Shown here in pieces: positions 1-61,690 of a DNA stretch of 64,000 bases. Origin of the DNA: Escherichia coli (GTDB lineage: Bacteria > Pseudomonadota > Gammaproteobacteria > Enterobacterales > Enterobacteriaceae); NCBI RefSeq assembly GCF_016903815.1, contig NZ_CP069973.1; one strand, given 5' to 3'. How positions within the stretch are numbered: the first letter of the stretch is position 1; each line of letters opens with the position of its first letter. The position numbers and the translations under genes are program-made. Below the pieces are notes generated by a model, which searched no databases, had not been told where the DNA came from, and was given only the letters and a program-made list of their open reading frames with translations.

Positions 1-1769
1 CACCACCGTACGTGCGGTTCCGCATACGGCGGTTCATGTTAACTCTGGAACTGCCTCTACTGTTCCAGCAGTGATATCAGACCCTGCCTCCTGAACCATG
101 CATTCTTTATCGCCTGATTCATATGGCTTGACCCTGAGTTCCACCATGGCCCGTGGTTGTTGTACGCAGAGATCATTGCCCTGTCCTTACTCAGTCCTGC
201 TCTTTGCAGATTCTTTGCCCGGGTTCGCGGTCTCTTCCACTGCCGCTACAACAAGCAACGCAGTTTCCGTTTGATCCAGCCATCCAGCTCCTCCAGCACT
301 CCTCTGACTTCCGTCAGCCTGAAGTAGCTTATCCATCCACACAGCACTGGTGTCAGAGCATTGATTGTCGCTTTCACTGATTTGCTCCGGTTTCCCGTCG
401 TCAGACTGTGGACTTTCTCCTTCAGCCTGTTCACGCTCGTCAGGGCTATCTTCAGCTTCGCCTGTTTGTGCCATGTCACACTGTACCCGAGGAACTTCCG
501 ATCCCACGGGCGCGCCACCGCGCTCTTCTTCTCATTCACCTTCAGTTTGTTCTCCACGAACGCCCTGATGTTCTTCAGCAGATGGTCGCCCGCTTTCCGG
601 CTGCTTACGTAGATGTTGCAGTCGTCTGCGTAGCGGCAGAAGCTGTGTCCACGACGCTCTAGTTCTTTATCCAGTTCATCCAGCAGGATGTTCGACAGTA
701 ACGGCGACAGTGGGCCGCCCTGCAGCATGCCCGCCTGCCGTTTCTCCCTTTGCCCGTCTTTAACCATTTCCACTTTCAGGTAGCGGCGTATCAGTCACAG
801 CACCCGCCTGTCCTTTATCGTTCTGGCCAGACGCGTCATCAGGAGTCTGTGATCCACCCGGTCGAAGAACTTCTCCAGATCCATATCCACCACCCACCGT
901 TTGCCACCCCGTATGTAACGCTGTGCCTGTTGCACCGCCTGCTGGATAAGCCTGTCCACCACCGTCGGGATGCCTGAGGTTCTCACGCCGCCATCCGGCT
1001 TCGGGATATCCATCCGGCGTATTGCCCGCGGCTGGTAGTTTCCGTCAATCAATGCCTGCCTGACGCTGCGCCAGTTCTTCTTCAGCCACGGTTTCAACTC
1101 CGCCACGCTGAGGTTATCCACCCCCGCCGTGCCTTTGTTTTCCAGCACGCGCTGATAAGCCAGCATCAGGTTTTCTCTCGTTATCACCGCTTCCATCGTC
1201 AGCGGCACTTCCGCTTTCGTTTGCCCACCCGCCGCCGTGCTGATTTCAGCGCCATCATGCAGCCCTGACGGATACTGTCCGTCTCCTCTGCCGCTGGTCG
1301 CAGTTGCCTGCGCTTGTGCTTCATTAATCATCATCGGGTTCGGATGTCCTAATCACAGTTAATCATGTTCGGCCCTTCATGCTGCCGGTTTTGCAGCACT
1401 ACTACGGCGTCGGCTGACTTCTGCCGCCCCATCCCGGCGCCTCACGGCGCCGGTAGCACACTGGCAGGGCGACAGATCTCCCGGGGTAATTCACGTGACT
1501 TTCCTGCTTATGCCTGTCGGCTTTACGTCACAGCGTTCCGTGTGAGTATCGGGCTTTGGTGATTTGTGCCACCTTACCCTGCTGCGCCGCCTTAACCGCT
1601 TCCTGTTCGTCAGGCCAGCATTTTGCATCCAGCTTCCTTCAGATTTCACCTCGCGATGAACACCCTTGCCTTCCGCTAACACTTCCCCTCACCGGGTGTG
1701 TGGAGGACTTTCACCTCTTAGTCGTTCTTCTGCCACCACAGTTGAAGAACAGCGCCAGTCACGGCGCAC
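1..1769 (-). mobile_element. Group II intron, bacterial class C-like, partial (3' end beyond window start)
   Basis: Minus strand begins GTGCG (plus 1765-1769) 10 nt after a terminator hairpin; RT ORF in domain IV position; domain V-like hairpin at 1-35. Confidence 0.6.
57..1334 (-). pseudogene. Group II intron-encoded reverse transcriptase/maturase, one frame, interrupted by two in-frame stop codons (near 795-797 and 246-248)
   Basis: RT motifs incl. YADD (CRYADD), PQGGPLSPLL, and maturase tail GPWWNSGSSHMNQA read in one frame across two stops; track ORFs 795..1334 and 246..773 share the frame. Confidence 0.6.
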
Positions 1770-28604: not shown

Positions 28605-31347
<2,743 letters not shown>

Positions 31348-58956: not shown

Positions 58957-59523
58957 ATGGCAACGTACTATAGCAACGATTTTCGTGCTGGTCTTAAAAT
59001 CATGTTAGACGGCGAACCTTACGCGGTTGAAGCGAGTGAATTCGTAAAACCGGGTAAAGGCCAGGCATTTGCTCGCGTTAAACTGCGTCGTCTGCTGACC
59101 GGTACTCGCGTAGAAAAAACCTTCAAATCTACTGATTCCGCTGAAGGTGCTGATGTTGTCGATATGAACCTGACTTACCTGTACAACGACGGTGAGTTCT
59201 GGCACTTCATGAACAACGAAACTTTCGAGCAGCTGTCTGCTGATGCAAAAGCAATTGGCGACAACGCCAAATGGTTGCTGGATCAGGCAGAGTGTATCGT
59301 AACTCTGTGGAATGGTCAGCCGATCTCCGTTACTCCGCCGAACTTCGTTGAACTGGAAATCGTGGATACCGATCCGGGCCTGAAAGGTGATACCGCAGGT
59401 ACTGGCGGCAAACCGGCTACCCTGTCTACTGGCGCTGTGGTTAAAGTTCCGCTGTTTGTACAAATCGGCGAAGTCATCAAAGTGGATACCCGCTCTGGTG
59501 AATACGTCTCTCGCGTGAAGTAA
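58957..59523 (+). CDS. efp: Elongation factor P
   Basis: 188 aa [42 protein letters not shown]. Confidence 0.95.
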
Positions 59524-59574
59524 TGCGGTTGTGGTGCGGCCTGCAGGCTGCACCATCACTTATTCAGGTCAGAG

Positions 59575-59700
59575 ATGATGAAACGCCTTATCGTTCTTGT
59601 TTTGCTTGCCAGTGCGCTGCTCACGGGCTGTAACACCGCTCGCGGTTTTGGTGAAGACATTAAACATCTCGGTAATTCCATCTCCCGCGCTGCCAGCTAA
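59575..59700 (+). CDS. ecnA: Entericidin A lipoprotein
   Basis: 41 aa MMKRLIVLVLLASALLTGCNTARGFGEDIKHLGNSISRAAS. Confidence 0.8.
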   Translation: MMKRLIVLVLLASALLTGCNTARGFGEDIKHLGNSISRAAS

Positions 59701-59810
59701 TTTTTCTTCTCTTCCGAAAAATCATCAGATTTCCATCATTTTTGGTGATGTTGTCTATTATTAATTTGCTATAGGCAAACATAAATAACATTACCTAAAA
59801 GGAAGACGTT

Positions 59811-59957
59811 ATGGTGAAGAAGACAATTGCAGCGATCTTTTCTGTTCTGGTGCTTTCAACAGTATTAACTGCCTGCAACACCACGCGTGGCGTTGGTGAA
59901 GACATTTCTGATGGCGGTAACGCGATTTCTGGCGCAGCAACGAAAGCGCAGCAGTAA
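59811..59957 (+). CDS. ecnB: Entericidin B lipoprotein
   Basis: 48 aa [48 protein letters not shown]. Confidence 0.8.
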
Positions 59958-59962
59958 GCAAT

Positions 59963-59996
59963 AACGGTACGACAGTTATGTCGTGCCGTTTGTTGT
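59963..59996 (+). terminator. ecnB terminator hairpin
   Basis: CGGTACGACA-GTTA-TGTCGTGCCG followed by TTTGTTGT. Confidence 0.5.
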
Positions 59997-59997
59997 G

Positions 59998-60710
59998 CAC
60001 AGAAAACCCCCAGCTAGGCTGGGGGTTCCGGAAAGCTTTCAGCTTTGAGCCAGTTATTAAAACCCCTTTTGATTTGTTAAAACACCTTGCGGTCTGGCAA
60101 CTGCAAGTGTCAAACAAGAAATCAAAAGGGGGTCCCAATGGGGAACGAAAAGAGCTTAGCGCACACCCGATGGAACTGTAAATATCACATAGTTTTTGCG
60201 CCAAAATACCGAAGACAGGTGTTCTACAGAGAGAAGCGTAGAGCAATAGGCAGTATTTTGAGAAAGCTGTGTGAGTGGAAAAGCGTACGGATTCTGGAAG
60301 CTGAATGCTGTGCAGATCATATCCATATGCTTGTGGAGATCCCGCCCAAAATGAGCGTATCCGGGTTTATGGGATATCTGAAAGGGAAAAGCAGTCTGAT
60401 GCTTTACGAGCAGTTTGGTGATTTGAAATTCAAATACAGGAACAGGGAGTTCTGGTGCAGAGGGTACTACGTCGATACAGTGGGTAAGAACACGGCGAAG
60501 ATACAGGATTACATAAAGCACCAGCTTGAAGAGGATAAAATGGGAGAGCAGTTATCGATTCCCTATCCGGGCAGCCCGTTTACGGGCCGTAAGTAACGAA
60601 GTTGGATGCAAATGTCAGATCGTGTGCGCCTGTTAGGGCGCGGCTGGTAAGAGAGCCTTATAGGCGCATTTGAAAAACCTCCGGCTATGCCGGAGGATAT
60701 TTATTTTTTT
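59998..60710 (+). mobile_element. IS200-like element (IS200/IS605 family), ends approximate
   Basis: 5' hairpin CCCCCAGC-TAGG-GCTGGGGG; Y1 transposase gene; 3' hairpin CCTCCGGC-TAT-GCCGGAGG plus T-run. Confidence 0.65.
60138..60596 (+). CDS. tnpA: IS200 TnpA (HUH/Y1 transposase)
   Basis: 152 aa MGNEKSLAHTRWNCKYHIVFAPKYRRQVFY ... HIHMLVEIPP (HUH motif). Confidence 0.9.
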   Translation: MGNEKSLAHTRWNCKYHIVFAPKYRRQVFYREKRRAIGSILRKLCEWKSVRILEAECCADHIHMLVEIPPKMSVSGFMGYLKGKSSLMLYEQFGDLKFKYRNREFWCRGYYVDTVGKNTAKIQDYIKHQLEEDKMGEQLSIPYPGSPFTGRK

Positions 60711-60778
60711 GCGATAGTCACAAAGGTAATAGTTGAAATTCCCCTGCCACCTGGCAAAATATCCGTTCAACCATCAGC

Positions 60779-60826
60779 TTTGCAGGACGACCTGCAAACG
60801 CCTCTTTTCACCGGGGACGGCCCCAA
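60779..60826 (+). ncRNA. Guanidine-II riboswitch (mini-ykkC) in the gdx leader
   Basis: Two hairpins with ACGR loops: TTGCAGG-ACGA-CCTGCAA and GGGG-ACGG-CCCC, 14-nt linker, second hairpin about 8 nt from the GGAG Shine-Dalgarno. Confidence 0.7.
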
Positions 60827-60842
60827 TTCTCCGGAGCCTGAT

Positions 60843-61160
60843 ATGTCCTGGATTATCTTAGTTATTGCTGGTCTGCTGGAAGTGGTATGGGCCGTTGGCC
60901 TGAAATATACCCACGGCTTTAGTCGTTTGACGCCAAGTGTTATTACCGTGACGGCGATGATTGTCAGTATGGCGCTACTTGCCTGGGCGATGAAATCGTT
61001 ACCAGTAGGGACGGCTTATGCCGTGTGGACGGGTATTGGCGCAGTCGGCGCGGCCATCACCGGCATTGTGCTGCTCGGCGAGTCCGCTAACCCGATGCGC
61101 CTGGCGAGTCTGGCGTTAATCGTATTGGGGATTATTGGTCTGAAACTCAGCACTCACTAA
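60843..61160 (+). CDS. gdx: SMR-family guanidinium exporter Gdx (SugE)
   Basis: 105 aa [26 protein letters not shown]. Confidence 0.9.
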
Positions 61161-61690
61161 CTACCGGGCTGCTGTACCCAAATAAACTTACTGACATCAA
61201 ACCCTTCCTGGGTCGCGACTGCCAGCATCTCCTGTTTCACTTCGTCAGAAATGGTTGGTGTGCGGGAGAGTATCCACAGGTAGTCGCGGTCCGGGCCGCA
61301 AACCAGCGCATGGCGGTATTCCCGATCGAGTGCAATAACGTTATAACCGCCATAGAAAGGACCAAAGAATGACACTTTCAGCGCAGCGCGAGTTGGTGCG
61401 CCGGTAAAGTACGCTTTCCCTTCACTCTGCTGCCACATTTCTCTGTCAGGGTTATAGCCTTTATTAATGACATTCAGGCCGCCGTCATCCCGCAGGCTGT
61501 ATGTTGCGGTGACTTTTTCCAGTCCACGTTCAAAGCGGTGATCAAAACGGGCAATCTCATACCAGGTACCGAGATAGCGTTTAGCATCGAAATTATTCAC
61601 TACGGTCACGCCACGGGGCGGCGTAGGAGAACTGCAGGCAACGACCAGAAATGCAGCTGTCGCTGCGGCAACGAGAGGGAGCAGGCGCAT
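61157..61690 (-). CDS. blc: Outer membrane lipocalin Blc
   Basis: 177 aa [21 protein letters not shown] (lipobox); overlaps gdx stop. Confidence 0.9.

What the first reader, a model, noticed from the sequence alone, without database searches (positions are those of the whole stretch)
59998..60826. IS200 copy between ecnB and the guanidine-II riboswitch of gdx
An IS200-like element with intact TnpA occupies the ecnB-gdx intergenic region, ending about 70 bp upstream of the two ACGR-loop hairpins. It does not disrupt the hairpins but replaces the native upstream promoter context of gdx. Its terminal hairpins could insulate or alter gdx transcription.
Basis: partly seen in the sequence, partly recalled or inferred. 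Interest (0 to 1): 0.45.

Follow-up and report, generated by a model that had tools for sequence, protein, structure and literature searches.

The report
IS200C inserted in the ecnB terminator
An intact 711-bp IS200C mobile element sits in the T-run of the ecnB transcription terminator, 63 bp upstream of the start of gdx transcription. It leaves the gdx promoter and guanidine riboswitch untouched, so it is an ordinary, probably neutral, lineage-specific insertion.

Summary
Window 59995-60705 (+/-2 nt) is a complete IS200C, with an intact 152-aa Y1 transposase and both subterminal hairpins. It lies between ecnB and gdx/sugE, 73 bp upstream of a bona fide guanidine-II riboswitch (Rfam 50.4 bits, threshold 32).

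Comparison with IS-free E. coli shows a clean 711-bp insertion with no target duplication. It sits in the T-tract of the ecnB intrinsic terminator, at the nucleotide where the K-12 ecnB transcript ends.

Only 68-69 of 5,426 complete E. coli genomes carry it. At least 60 of them have a 100% identical left junction, and the 60 listed carriers are all IS200C-rich (16-35 hits per chromosome). That suggests one inherited event.

The gdx core promoter (TTGAAA-16-TGgCAAAAT) and the published TSS (about 60768) lie wholly downstream of the element, and 60710-60860 is 100% identical to K-12. The IS therefore replaces only what lay beyond about -63, namely a terminator, and supplies a terminator-like right-end hairpin of its own. 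A regulatory effect on gdx is unlikely.

By-product: of 125 independent IS200/IS1541-type insertions from many bacteria, 78% (more by eye) directly abut a terminator hairpin plus T-tract ending in TTNTT. Controls gave 0-15%.

The parts
59811..59957 (+). ecnB (entericidin B lipoprotein), the upstream neighbour
   Evidence: NF007487 121.9 bits, cut-off 94; annotated ecnB in the identical RefSeq stretch
59963..59994 (+). ecnB intrinsic terminator: 12-bp hairpin (59963-59990) plus the retained proximal T-tract ...GCCGTTTGTT. The IS is inserted immediately 3' of 59994.
   Evidence: Fold -19.2 kcal/mol, z -3.9, the same hairpin as K-12. The K-12 Term-seq ecnB 3' end 4376736 maps to the last T of GCCGTTTGTT (PMC7815308 supplementary file 1).
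59995..60705 (+). IS200C, 711 bp, complete. No terminal inverted repeats and no target-site duplication. Boundaries are ambiguous by 2 nt because T precedes the element and T ends it.
   Evidence: Empty-site comparison with K-12 (L001) and 2013C-3033 (L003). Six other E. coli copies with both flanks are 711 bp with the same ends GTGCACAG...ATATTTATT, one having ATATTTTTT at its right end. 100% identical copies occur in many genomes.
60005..60027 (+). IS200 left-end subterminal hairpin (AACCCCCAGCTAGGCTGGGGGTT). It equals nts 12-34 of Salmonella IS200, a bidirectional terminator that blocks impinging transcription and the presumed TnpA binding hairpin.
   Evidence: Rfam STnc490 structure; fold -18.7 kcal/mol; function from PMC4513863
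60062..60131 (+). [quoted passage not shown]
   Evidence: Second long helix of the Rfam STnc490 alignment; role from PMC4513863. Coordinates transferred by homology.
60057..60147 (-). art200 antisense sRNA gene (about 90 nt, 5' ends at IS nts 153/154), inferred by homology
   Evidence: PMC4513863. The numbering is anchored on the hairpin at nts 12-34. Not measured in this strain.
60138..60596 (+). tnpA, an intact 152-aa Y1 (HUH) transposase. It has H61-I-H63 and a C-terminal Tyr in QDYIKHQ (Y125, by analogy with IS608 Y127).
   Evidence: NF033573 147.7 bits, profile 2-126 of 126. The identical stretch is annotated WP_000526135.1, as are copies at other loci. Assignment of the catalytic residues is inference.
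60678..60705 (+). IS200 right-end hairpin CCTCCGGCTATGCCGGAGG (19 nt, the same architecture as the left-end hairpin core CCCCCAGCTAGGCTGGGGG) plus the 9-nt tail ATATTTATT. With the flanking T-run it is terminator-like on both strands.
   Evidence: Terminator scan hits on + and -; fold -15.9 kcal/mol, z -4.3. The weak Ysr202 Rfam hit here (26 bits against 315) is only this hairpin.
60706..60710 (+). Remainder of the ecnB terminator T-tract (TTTTT), displaced 711 bp by the insertion
   Evidence: Empty site GCCGTTTGTT|TTTTTGCGATAG in L003
60733..60768 (+). Native gdx/sugE promoter: -35 TTGAAA (60733-60738), 16-nt spacer, extended -10 TGgCAAAAT (60752-60760), TSS about 60768. A CCTGG Dcm site at 60750-60754 abuts the -10.
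   Evidence: The only promoter-like hit in 59500-61300. TSS derived from PMC7815308. PMC4924334 states that sugE has a CCWGG site near its -10. Identical to K-12.
60779..60825 (+). Guanidine-II (mini-ykkC) riboswitch: P1 60779-60798 (loop ACGA), P2 60813-60824 (loop ACGG)
   Evidence: RF01068 50.4 bits, threshold 32
60843..61160 (+). gdx (sugE) guanidinium/QAC SMR exporter; Shine-Dalgarno GGAG at 60833-60836
   Evidence: NF008512 193.5 bits, cut-off 126; annotated sugE WP_000118482.1

Best explanation
Window 59995-60705 is a complete and potentially mobile copy of IS200C. IS200C belongs to the IS200 group of the IS200/IS605 family, which move as single-stranded DNA by a 'peel-and-paste' mechanism using a Y1 HUH transposase. 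The copy inserted, without duplication, into the T-tract of the ecnB Rho-independent terminator. The insertion point is immediately 3' of ...GCCGTTTGTT, the nucleotide where the ecnB mRNA ends in K-12. The element points the same way as ecnB and gdx. This placement is typical of the element: IS200/IS1541-type copies almost always lie just after a terminator hairpin and T-run ending in TTNTT. The insertion is a lineage-specific polymorphism, found in about 1.3% of complete E. coli genomes, all of them IS200C-rich. It is most likely neutral for its neighbours. ecnB keeps its hairpin and the proximal 6 nt of its U-tract, and any read-through meets the IS200 left-end terminator hairpin. tnpA transcription meets the right-end hairpin and T-run. 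gdx keeps its own promoter, TSS, guanidine-II riboswitch, Shine-Dalgarno and coding sequence unchanged. Shown here: the identity, boundaries, intactness, insertion point, population frequency and sequence identity of the gdx control region. Inferred: transcriptional neutrality, the activity of the copy, and the art200 and 5'UTR regulation (by homology with Salmonella IS200).
For: Identity: the Rfam STnc490 match is 146 bits, the NCBIfam IS200 transposase equivalog matches over its full length, and RefSeq annotates the identical stretch as IS200C.

Insertion point: K-12 and 2013C-3033 have GCCGTTTGTT|TTTTTGCG uninterrupted, so the window carries 711 extra bases with no duplication. The K-12 ecnB Term-seq 3' end coincides with the insertion point.

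Frequency: 69 of 5,426 genomes hold the full ecnB-IS-sugE arrangement and 68 hold the left junction. The 60 listed are 100% identical and have 16-35 IS200C hits per chromosome. IS200C itself occurs in 3,096 of 5,426 genomes.

gdx control region: there is a single promoter-like site, at 60733-60760, and it matches the published TSS. The stretch 60710-60860 is 100% identical to K-12. The riboswitch scores above the Rfam threshold.

Insulation: the left-end hairpin is reported as a bidirectional Rho-independent terminator (PMC4513863). The right-end hairpin with its T-run is flagged as terminator-like and folds at -15.9 kcal/mol.

Typical target: 7 of 7 independent E. coli copies follow the terminator of a co-oriented gene (ecnB, icd, rpoS, carB, plaP, potE, sseA). 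Of 125 unique left flanks from many taxa, 97 have a perfect hairpin plus T-tail ending at the IS. Controls gave 0/125, 0/590 and 1/625. The background at TTNTT sites in non-ORF DNA is 14-15%.
Against: No expression data exist for a strain that carries the insertion, so neutrality for gdx and ecnB is inferred from sequence only. The distal U-tract of the ecnB terminator is replaced (UUUGUU|GUGCAC instead of UUUGUUUUUU), which could lower its efficiency. DNA upstream of -63 can still influence a promoter through curvature, nucleoid-protein binding or supercoiling, and 711 bp of new DNA with an antisense promoter (art200) now lies there. Fixation in one successful clinical lineage is compatible with hitch-hiking but does not exclude a selective effect. 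The TSS position was derived indirectly, from the text '76 nt downstream' plus a supplementary table, and is good to about +/-1-2 nt.
Confidence: 0.9

Rival explanations
1. The insertion is a regulatory mutation. By replacing the sequence upstream of gdx, or through outward transcription or its hairpins, the IS raises or lowers gdx expression, and it was selected for guanidine or QAC tolerance in this lineage.
For: The IS lies only 63 bp upstream of the gdx TSS and in the same orientation. All carriers listed belong to an apparently successful, mostly human-associated group. IS insertions upstream of efflux genes are a known route to resistance (general knowledge).
Against: The -35, the -10, the TSS, the region down to -58 and the whole leader are identical to K-12. 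No additional promoter-like site reads out of the right end. The right end carries a strong hairpin and T-run that should stop tnpA transcripts. tnpA has an intrinsically weak promoter (PMC4513863). The site is the generic IS200 target, a terminator T-tract, as at icd, rpoS, carB and others, so no locus-specific selection is needed to explain it.
Confidence: 0.07
2. The copy is a dead relic: an immobile IS200 remnant kept only by descent.
For: IS200 transposes very rarely in the laboratory and is described as mostly dormant (PMC4513863).
Against: The transposase ORF is full length and matches the family profile end to end. Both end hairpins and the 5'UTR structure are intact. The copy is 100% identical over 723 bp to copies in at least 30 other genomes listed (many at this same locus, so partly inherited), and the same transposase protein, WP_000526135.1, is encoded at other loci (icd, rpoS). 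Carrier chromosomes hold 16-35 copies, which indicates expansion in this lineage.
Confidence: 0.1
3. The IS-bearing arrangement is ancestral, and IS-free genomes arose by repeated precise excision.
For: IS200/IS605 elements do excise precisely and seamlessly (family mechanism, PMC5027513), so an empty site carries no scar.
Against: About 98.7% of genomes across the species have the empty site, including K-12, O157-like, O111 and O55 strains. The carriers listed share an identical junction and a very high IS200C load. Many independent precise excisions would be needed, against one insertion.
Confidence: 0.02

Closest known systems
IS200 of Salmonella enterica and IS200C of E. coli (IS200 group, IS200/IS605 family)
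   Same: Similar size (711 bp here, 707 bp in Salmonella). A single tnpA encodes a Y1 HUH transposase. The left-end terminator hairpin is at nts 12-34 and the 5'UTR stem-loop hides the Shine-Dalgarno sequence. The art200/STnc490 region is present. There are no inverted repeats and no target duplication.
   Different: Nothing of substance. This is simply one more chromosomal copy at a locus (ecnB-gdx) occupied in only about 1.3% of complete E. coli genomes.
IS1541 of Yersinia pestis / Y. pseudotuberculosis
   Same: The left-end hairpin 23-mer is identical and the right-end hairpin and tail ATATTTATT are near-identical. The element is 710 bp. It shows the same placement directly after terminator hairpins and T-tracts.
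   Different: The 10 nt between the left boundary and the hairpin differ by one base (GTGCCCAGAA against GTGCACAGAA). The Y. pestis genome scanned holds dozens of copies, including tandem pairs.
E. coli sugE/gdx guanidine-II (mini-ykkC) riboswitch
   Same: The leader is 100% identical to the K-12 leader that is the reference example: P1 and P2 have ACGR loops and the Shine-Dalgarno sequence follows directly. The K-12 leader is also subject to Rho-dependent premature termination (PMC7815308).
   Different: None in the riboswitch itself. Only the DNA beyond -63 differs.
Bacterial group IIC introns (retroelements that insert after intrinsic terminators); REP-targeting IS such as ISPpu9
   Same: These are mobile elements that choose a structured, transcriptionally 'safe' intergenic motif, a stem-loop upstream of the insertion point (PMC7923331; PMC8450116 abstract). 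The IS200 pattern seen here resembles this in outcome.
   Different: The mechanism is entirely different: RNA-guided retrohoming or DDE/DEDD transposition, against Y1 HUH single-strand DNA transposition. Whether IS200 TnpA reads the hairpin at all is untested.

Membership tests
IS200/IS605 family, IS200 group (IS200C) | Encodes a Y1 HUH tyrosine transposase (TnpA) | tested here: met
   NF033573 equivalog 147.7 bits (cut-off 55) over profile 2-126 of 126. HIH is at residues 61-63 and the Tyr lies in QDYIKHQ, both read directly from the translation.
IS200/IS605 family, IS200 group (IS200C) | tnpA only, no tnpB (distinguishes the IS200 group from the IS605 and IS1341 groups) | tested here: met
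   tnpA is the only ORF in the 711-bp element that matches a protein family; the other long ORFs overlap it on other frames or the opposite strand, and there is no room for a tnpB.
IS200/IS605 family, IS200 group (IS200C) | Subterminal hairpins at both ends instead of terminal inverted repeats | tested here: met
   The left-end hairpin is at 60005-60027 (-18.7 kcal/mol) and the right-end hairpin at 60678-60696 (-15.9 kcal/mol). Both cores are 19 nt with similar sequence.
IS200/IS605 family, IS200 group (IS200C) | Insertion without target-site duplication, with the left end 3' of a short specific target sequence | tested here: met
   The empty site is GCCGTTTGTT|TTTTTGCG, with no duplicated bases. 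The left flank ends in T-T-N-T-T in nearly all of 125 independent copies: T at -1 in 124/125, at -2 in 123/125 and at -5 in 120/125. The family rule is stated in PMC5027513.
IS200/IS605 family, IS200 group (IS200C) | Near-identity to the catalogued IS200C sequence | tested here: met
   100% identity over 723 bp to stretches that RefSeq/PGAP annotates as 'IS200/IS605-like element IS200C family transposase'. ISfinder itself could not be queried.
IS200/IS605 family, IS200 group (IS200C) | Single-strand 'peel and paste' transposition activity | not testable with these tools
   Needs excision and integration assays. Carrier chromosomes hold 16-35 copies, which is indirect evidence of activity in the lineage.
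Guanidine-II riboswitch (mini-ykkC, RF01068) | Two hairpins, each with an ACGR tetraloop, joined by a short linker, scoring above the Rfam gathering threshold | tested here: met
   50.4 bits against 32. The loops are ACGA and ACGG and the linker is 14 nt.
Guanidine-II riboswitch (mini-ykkC, RF01068) | Located in the 5' leader of a guanidine-related gene (an SMR exporter of the Gdx type), with the Shine-Dalgarno sequence just downstream | tested here: met
   The riboswitch starts 11 nt after the inferred TSS. GGAG lies 8 nt after P2. The downstream ORF matches SugE/Gdx NF008512 at 193.5 bits.
Guanidine-II riboswitch (mini-ykkC, RF01068) | Guanidinium binding and ligand-dependent gene activation | not testable with these tools
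   The sequence is identical to the K-12 leader studied in the literature (PMC9300104 and PMC12117010, listed).

The most novel reading that the evidence does not exclude
IS200/IS1541-type elements may not merely need a T-rich pentanucleotide. They may actively home to intrinsic transcription terminators, recognising the hairpin plus T-tract in single-stranded lagging-strand template DNA. That structure mimics the element's own right end, which is a hairpin with a 9-nt tail ATATTTATT. Terminators would then serve as 'safe harbours', by analogy with group IIC introns. The copy after ecnB would be one instance, inserted at the very nucleotide where the ecnB RNA ends.
Probability: 0.3. Interest if true: 0.5.

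Novelty: already known. Interest (0 to 1): 0.15.

Why it matters
For the finding as stated, it matters very little. IS200C, the gdx guanidine-II riboswitch and this very arrangement are already annotated in dozens of RefSeq genomes. The gdx control region is untouched, so there is no reason to expect a phenotype. It is useful as a clonal marker of an IS200C-rich E. coli lineage. It also gives a clean natural example of how this element parks itself: in the T-tract of a terminator, bracketed by its own terminator-like hairpins, so that neither neighbour is disturbed. The wider pattern is of moderate interest for transposon biology and for annotation. Most IS200/IS1541-type copies abut terminators at a TTNTT. 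If the hairpin is truly part of the target, this would be a new kind of target recognition for a Y1 HUH transposase, and it would help explain why a near-dormant element reaches high copy numbers without harm.

Tried and rejected
1. A MAFFT pairwise alignment of the window against K-12 misplaced the left flank. I defined the junctions by anchoring on exact motifs instead.

2. I looked for a primary description of the sugE promoter (Greener 1993, PMC413287) and of IS1541 and IS200 insertion sites (Odaert 1998, PMC106867; Beuzon and Casadesus 1997, PMC146608). None is held. The TSS had to be derived from Adams et al. 2021 and its supplementary table.

3. Literature searches for an explicit statement that IS200 targets terminators found only the 2025-26 preprint on IS 'niches'. 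Searches found nothing more specific, and the hits read did not mention it.

4. The Rfam Ysr202 hit at 60673-60724 (-) scores 26 bits against a threshold of 315. It is only the right-end terminator hairpin, so I rejected it.

5. I considered an outward-reading or hybrid promoter at the IS right end. None was found by the consensus scan.

6. I considered that TTNTT alone explains the terminator association. Only 14-15% of TTNTT sites in non-ORF DNA of the same loci have such a hairpin, against 78% at real insertion sites. This does not separate targeting from selection after insertion.

7. GC skew is only weakly positive here (+0.03). It is compatible with the IS top strand being on the lagging-strand template but is not decisive.

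Full report
**What is there**

The interval between ecnB (59811-59957) and gdx/sugE (60843-61160) holds a complete IS200 element. Rfam matches the IS200 left end and tnpA leader (STnc490, RF01405) at 60005-60128 with 146.4 bits. It matches the guanidine-II riboswitch (RF01068) at 60779-60825 with 50.4 bits, against a gathering score of 32. The 152-aa ORF at 60138-60596 matches the NCBIfam equivalog for IS200/IS605 transposases over the whole profile (147.7 bits, cut-off 55). The flanking ORFs are entericidin B and SugE/Gdx by the same test. An identical 1.2-kb stretch in E. coli strain 7/2 is annotated ecnB, 'IS200C family transposase' and sugE. The left-end hairpin 23-mer occurs once in the window (the second listed match is the same palindromic site on the other strand), with none expected by chance.

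**Boundaries and insertion point**

K-12 (L001) and strain 2013C-3033 (L003) have the uninterrupted sequence ...GTCGTGCCGTTTGTT|TTTTTGCGATAG... (K-12 differs slightly in the T-run). The window has GCCGTTTGTT, then GTGCACAGAAAACCCCC...GGAGGATATTTATT, then TTTTTGCGATAG. The element is thus 59995-60705, 711 bp, with no duplicated target bases and no terminal inverted repeats. A T/T overlap leaves 2 nt of ambiguity.

Six other E. coli copies for which both flanks were recovered are also 711 bp and begin GTGCACAG; five end ATATTTATT and one ATATTTTTT. Forty-two of the 43 complete Yersinia IS1541 copies recovered are 710 bp and one is 729 bp. The left-end hairpin (core CCCCCAGCTAGGCTGGGGG) and the right-end hairpin (CCTCCGGCTATGCCGGAGG) are both 19 nt and similar in sequence, as expected for the two TnpA-bound subterminal hairpins of this family.

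**The site is the ecnB terminator**

The 12-bp hairpin at 59963-59990 (-19.2 kcal/mol, the same as in K-12) followed by TTTGTTTTTTT is the ecnB intrinsic terminator. In the Term-seq table of Adams et al. 2021 (PMC7815308, supplementary file 1), the ecnB 3' end is at K-12 position 4376736. I checked the row format against three other rows and against the sugE start codon. This maps the 3' end to the last T of GCCGTTTGTT, which is the base immediately before the IS. The IS therefore split the U-tract-encoding T-run. Six bases stay with the hairpin, and five Ts now lie 711 bp away at 60706-60710.

**Population frequency**

Of 5,426 complete E. coli genomes, 69 hold the whole ecnB-IS-sugE arrangement and 68 hold the left junction. 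The 60 listed are 100% identical, and their chromosomes carry 16-35 IS200C hits each. Essentially all other genomes have the empty site. IS200C as such is present in 3,096 of the 5,426 genomes. The simplest reading is one insertion event inherited within an IS200C-rich lineage. The lineage's sequence type was not determined.

**Does it touch gdx regulation?**

The consensus scan finds a single sigma-70-like promoter in 59500-61300: TTGAAA (60733-60738), a 16-nt spacer and CAAAAT (60755-60760) preceded by TG.

[quoted passage not shown] 2015. Their table places that 3' end at 4376876, the second base of the start codon. The TSS is therefore 75 nt upstream of the ATG, which is window ~60768 and 8 nt after the predicted -10. 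Militello and colleagues note a CCWGG site near the sugE -10 (PMC4924334), and CCTGG is indeed at 60750-60754.

The promoter, TSS, riboswitch, Shine-Dalgarno sequence (GGAG, 60833-60836) and start codon thus all lie downstream of the IS, whose last base is at about -63. The stretch 60710-60860 is 100% identical to K-12. What the IS displaced from the position upstream of -63 is a terminator, not a promoter.

In its place the IS supplies its own right-end hairpin followed by ATATTTATT and TTTTT. This is flagged as terminator-like on both strands and folds at -15.9 kcal/mol. At the other end, any read-through from ecnB meets the left-end hairpin. In Salmonella IS200 this hairpin is described as a bidirectional Rho-independent terminator that protects against impinging transcription (PMC4513863).

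The idea that the hairpins insulate is reasonable, but it amounts to swapping one terminator for another. I rate a real regulatory effect on gdx as unlikely (about 0.07). This is inference from sequence, because no expression data exist for a carrier strain.

**How the element works (by homology)**

The coordinates below are transferred from Salmonella IS200 using the hairpin at nts 12-34 as anchor (PMC4513863).
- tnpA transcription starts at about nt 40, from a weak promoter.
- The 5'UTR stem-loop (60062-60131) sequesters the Shine-Dalgarno sequence.
- The tnpA 5'UTR can also be processed into trans-acting RNAs (PMC5435999).

[quoted passage not shown] Here the top strand is the + strand. Local GC skew is weakly positive, and ecnB and sugE lie on the clockwise replichore in K-12. 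Both are compatible with the lagging-strand template, but this evidence is weak.

**Why there? A family-wide pattern**

All seven independent E. coli IS200C sites I examined lie directly after a hairpin and T-run at the 3' end of a co-oriented gene: ecnB, icd, rpoS, carB, plaP, potE and sseA.

They came from Yersinia pestis, several Vibrio species, Brenneria, Dickeya, Edwardsiella, Pluralibacter and Budvicia, and from MAGs assigned to Oxalobacter, Mailhella/Desulfovibrio, Bacillota, Peptococcaceae, Elusimicrobiaceae and Saccharibacteria.

Results for the 125 unique left flanks:
- 97 have a perfect-stem GC-rich hairpin (at least 5 bp) with a T-rich tail ending exactly at the IS boundary.
- The controls gave 0/125 for the reverse complement, 0/590 for boundaries shifted 100-300 nt, and 1/625 for shuffles.
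- Most of the 28 misses are imperfect hairpins by eye.
- The last five flank bases are T-T-N-T-T: T at -1 in 124/125, at -2 in 123/125 and at -5 in 120/125.

TTNTT alone does not explain the association. In non-ORF DNA of the same loci, only 14-15% of TTNTT sites have such a hairpin. Tandem IS1541 pairs show a new copy sitting right after the hairpin and ATATTTATT of another copy, so the element's own right end looks like a target.

Whether TnpA reads the hairpin, or whether insertions elsewhere are simply purged, cannot be decided from genomes.

**Verdict**

This is a correctly spotted but ordinary feature: a known IS at a typical IS200 target, already annotated in RefSeq and leaving a textbook riboswitch and its promoter intact. 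I rate novelty as 'already known' and interest as low (0.15). The only part that might repay further work is the general terminator association of IS200-type elements. I give it about 0.3 probability of being both a true targeting mechanism and not yet properly described, with moderate interest if so.

Noticed in passing
L004-L129 (left flanks of IS200/IS1541-type copies); window 59963-59994: Of 125 independent IS200/IS1541-type insertions from diverse bacteria, 97 by a strict test (more by eye) lie immediately 3' of a GC-rich hairpin and T-tract, that is, an intrinsic terminator. The flank ends in T-T-N-T-T. Controls gave 0-1 hits, and the background at TTNTT sites in non-ORF DNA is 14-15%.
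   Followed up: partly
L075, L076, L078, L092, L122 (Yersinia pestis NCTC5923): There are tandem IS1541 copies. The second copy starts directly after the right-end hairpin and ATATTTATT(T) of the first, so the element's own right end behaves like a target site.
   Followed up: partly
window 60005-60128 (+): The Rfam STnc490 model matches the + (tnpA-sense) strand and covers the left-end hairpin and the tnpA 5'UTR stem-loop. Ellis et al. 2015 describe STnc490/art200 as the RNA antisense to that 5'UTR. The Rfam hit therefore marks the region, not the strand of the sRNA.
   Followed up: partly
window 60750-60754; L001 841-845 (K-12): A Dcm site (CCTGG) abuts the -10 hexamer of the gdx/sugE promoter in the window and also in K-12. 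This agrees with Militello et al. (PMC4924334). It contradicts the statement in PMC11741368 that MG1655 has no Dcm site proximal to sugE.
   Followed up: partly
window about 28900-30900 (+): An apparently intact group II intron. Rfam finds intron domain V/VI at 30788-30874, just after a 507-aa ORF (29261-30784) annotated ltrA reverse transcriptase/maturase in strain 7/2. It lies between two pieces of an IS3-family transposase pseudogene in a region full of IS remnants.
   Followed up: partly
window 246-1660 (-): A second, probably degenerate, group II intron. Rfam D1-D4 hits lie at 1372-1456 and 1491-1660. They are followed by two short ORFs (795-1334 and 246-773), one annotated 'reverse transcriptase domain-containing protein'. 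The intron sits next to the grp (glycyl-radical propanediol) gene cluster.
   Followed up: no
L010-L070 (MAG contigs): The exact 23-nt IS200 left-end hairpin is present in MAGs assigned to very distant phyla (Bacillota, Desulfovibrionaceae, Elusimicrobiaceae, Saccharibacteria bins), often at contig ends. Each lineage has its own 10-11 nt between the boundary and the hairpin (for example GTGAAACGAA, GGTTAAAAGAA). This means either wide horizontal spread of a very conserved hairpin or some binning contamination.
   Followed up: no
window 60673-60724 (-): A weak Rfam hit to Yersinia sRNA Ysr202 (26 bits, threshold 315) covers only the IS right-end hairpin read on the minus strand. It probably arises because that Yersinia sRNA model includes a terminator hairpin similar to the IS right end.
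   Followed up: no
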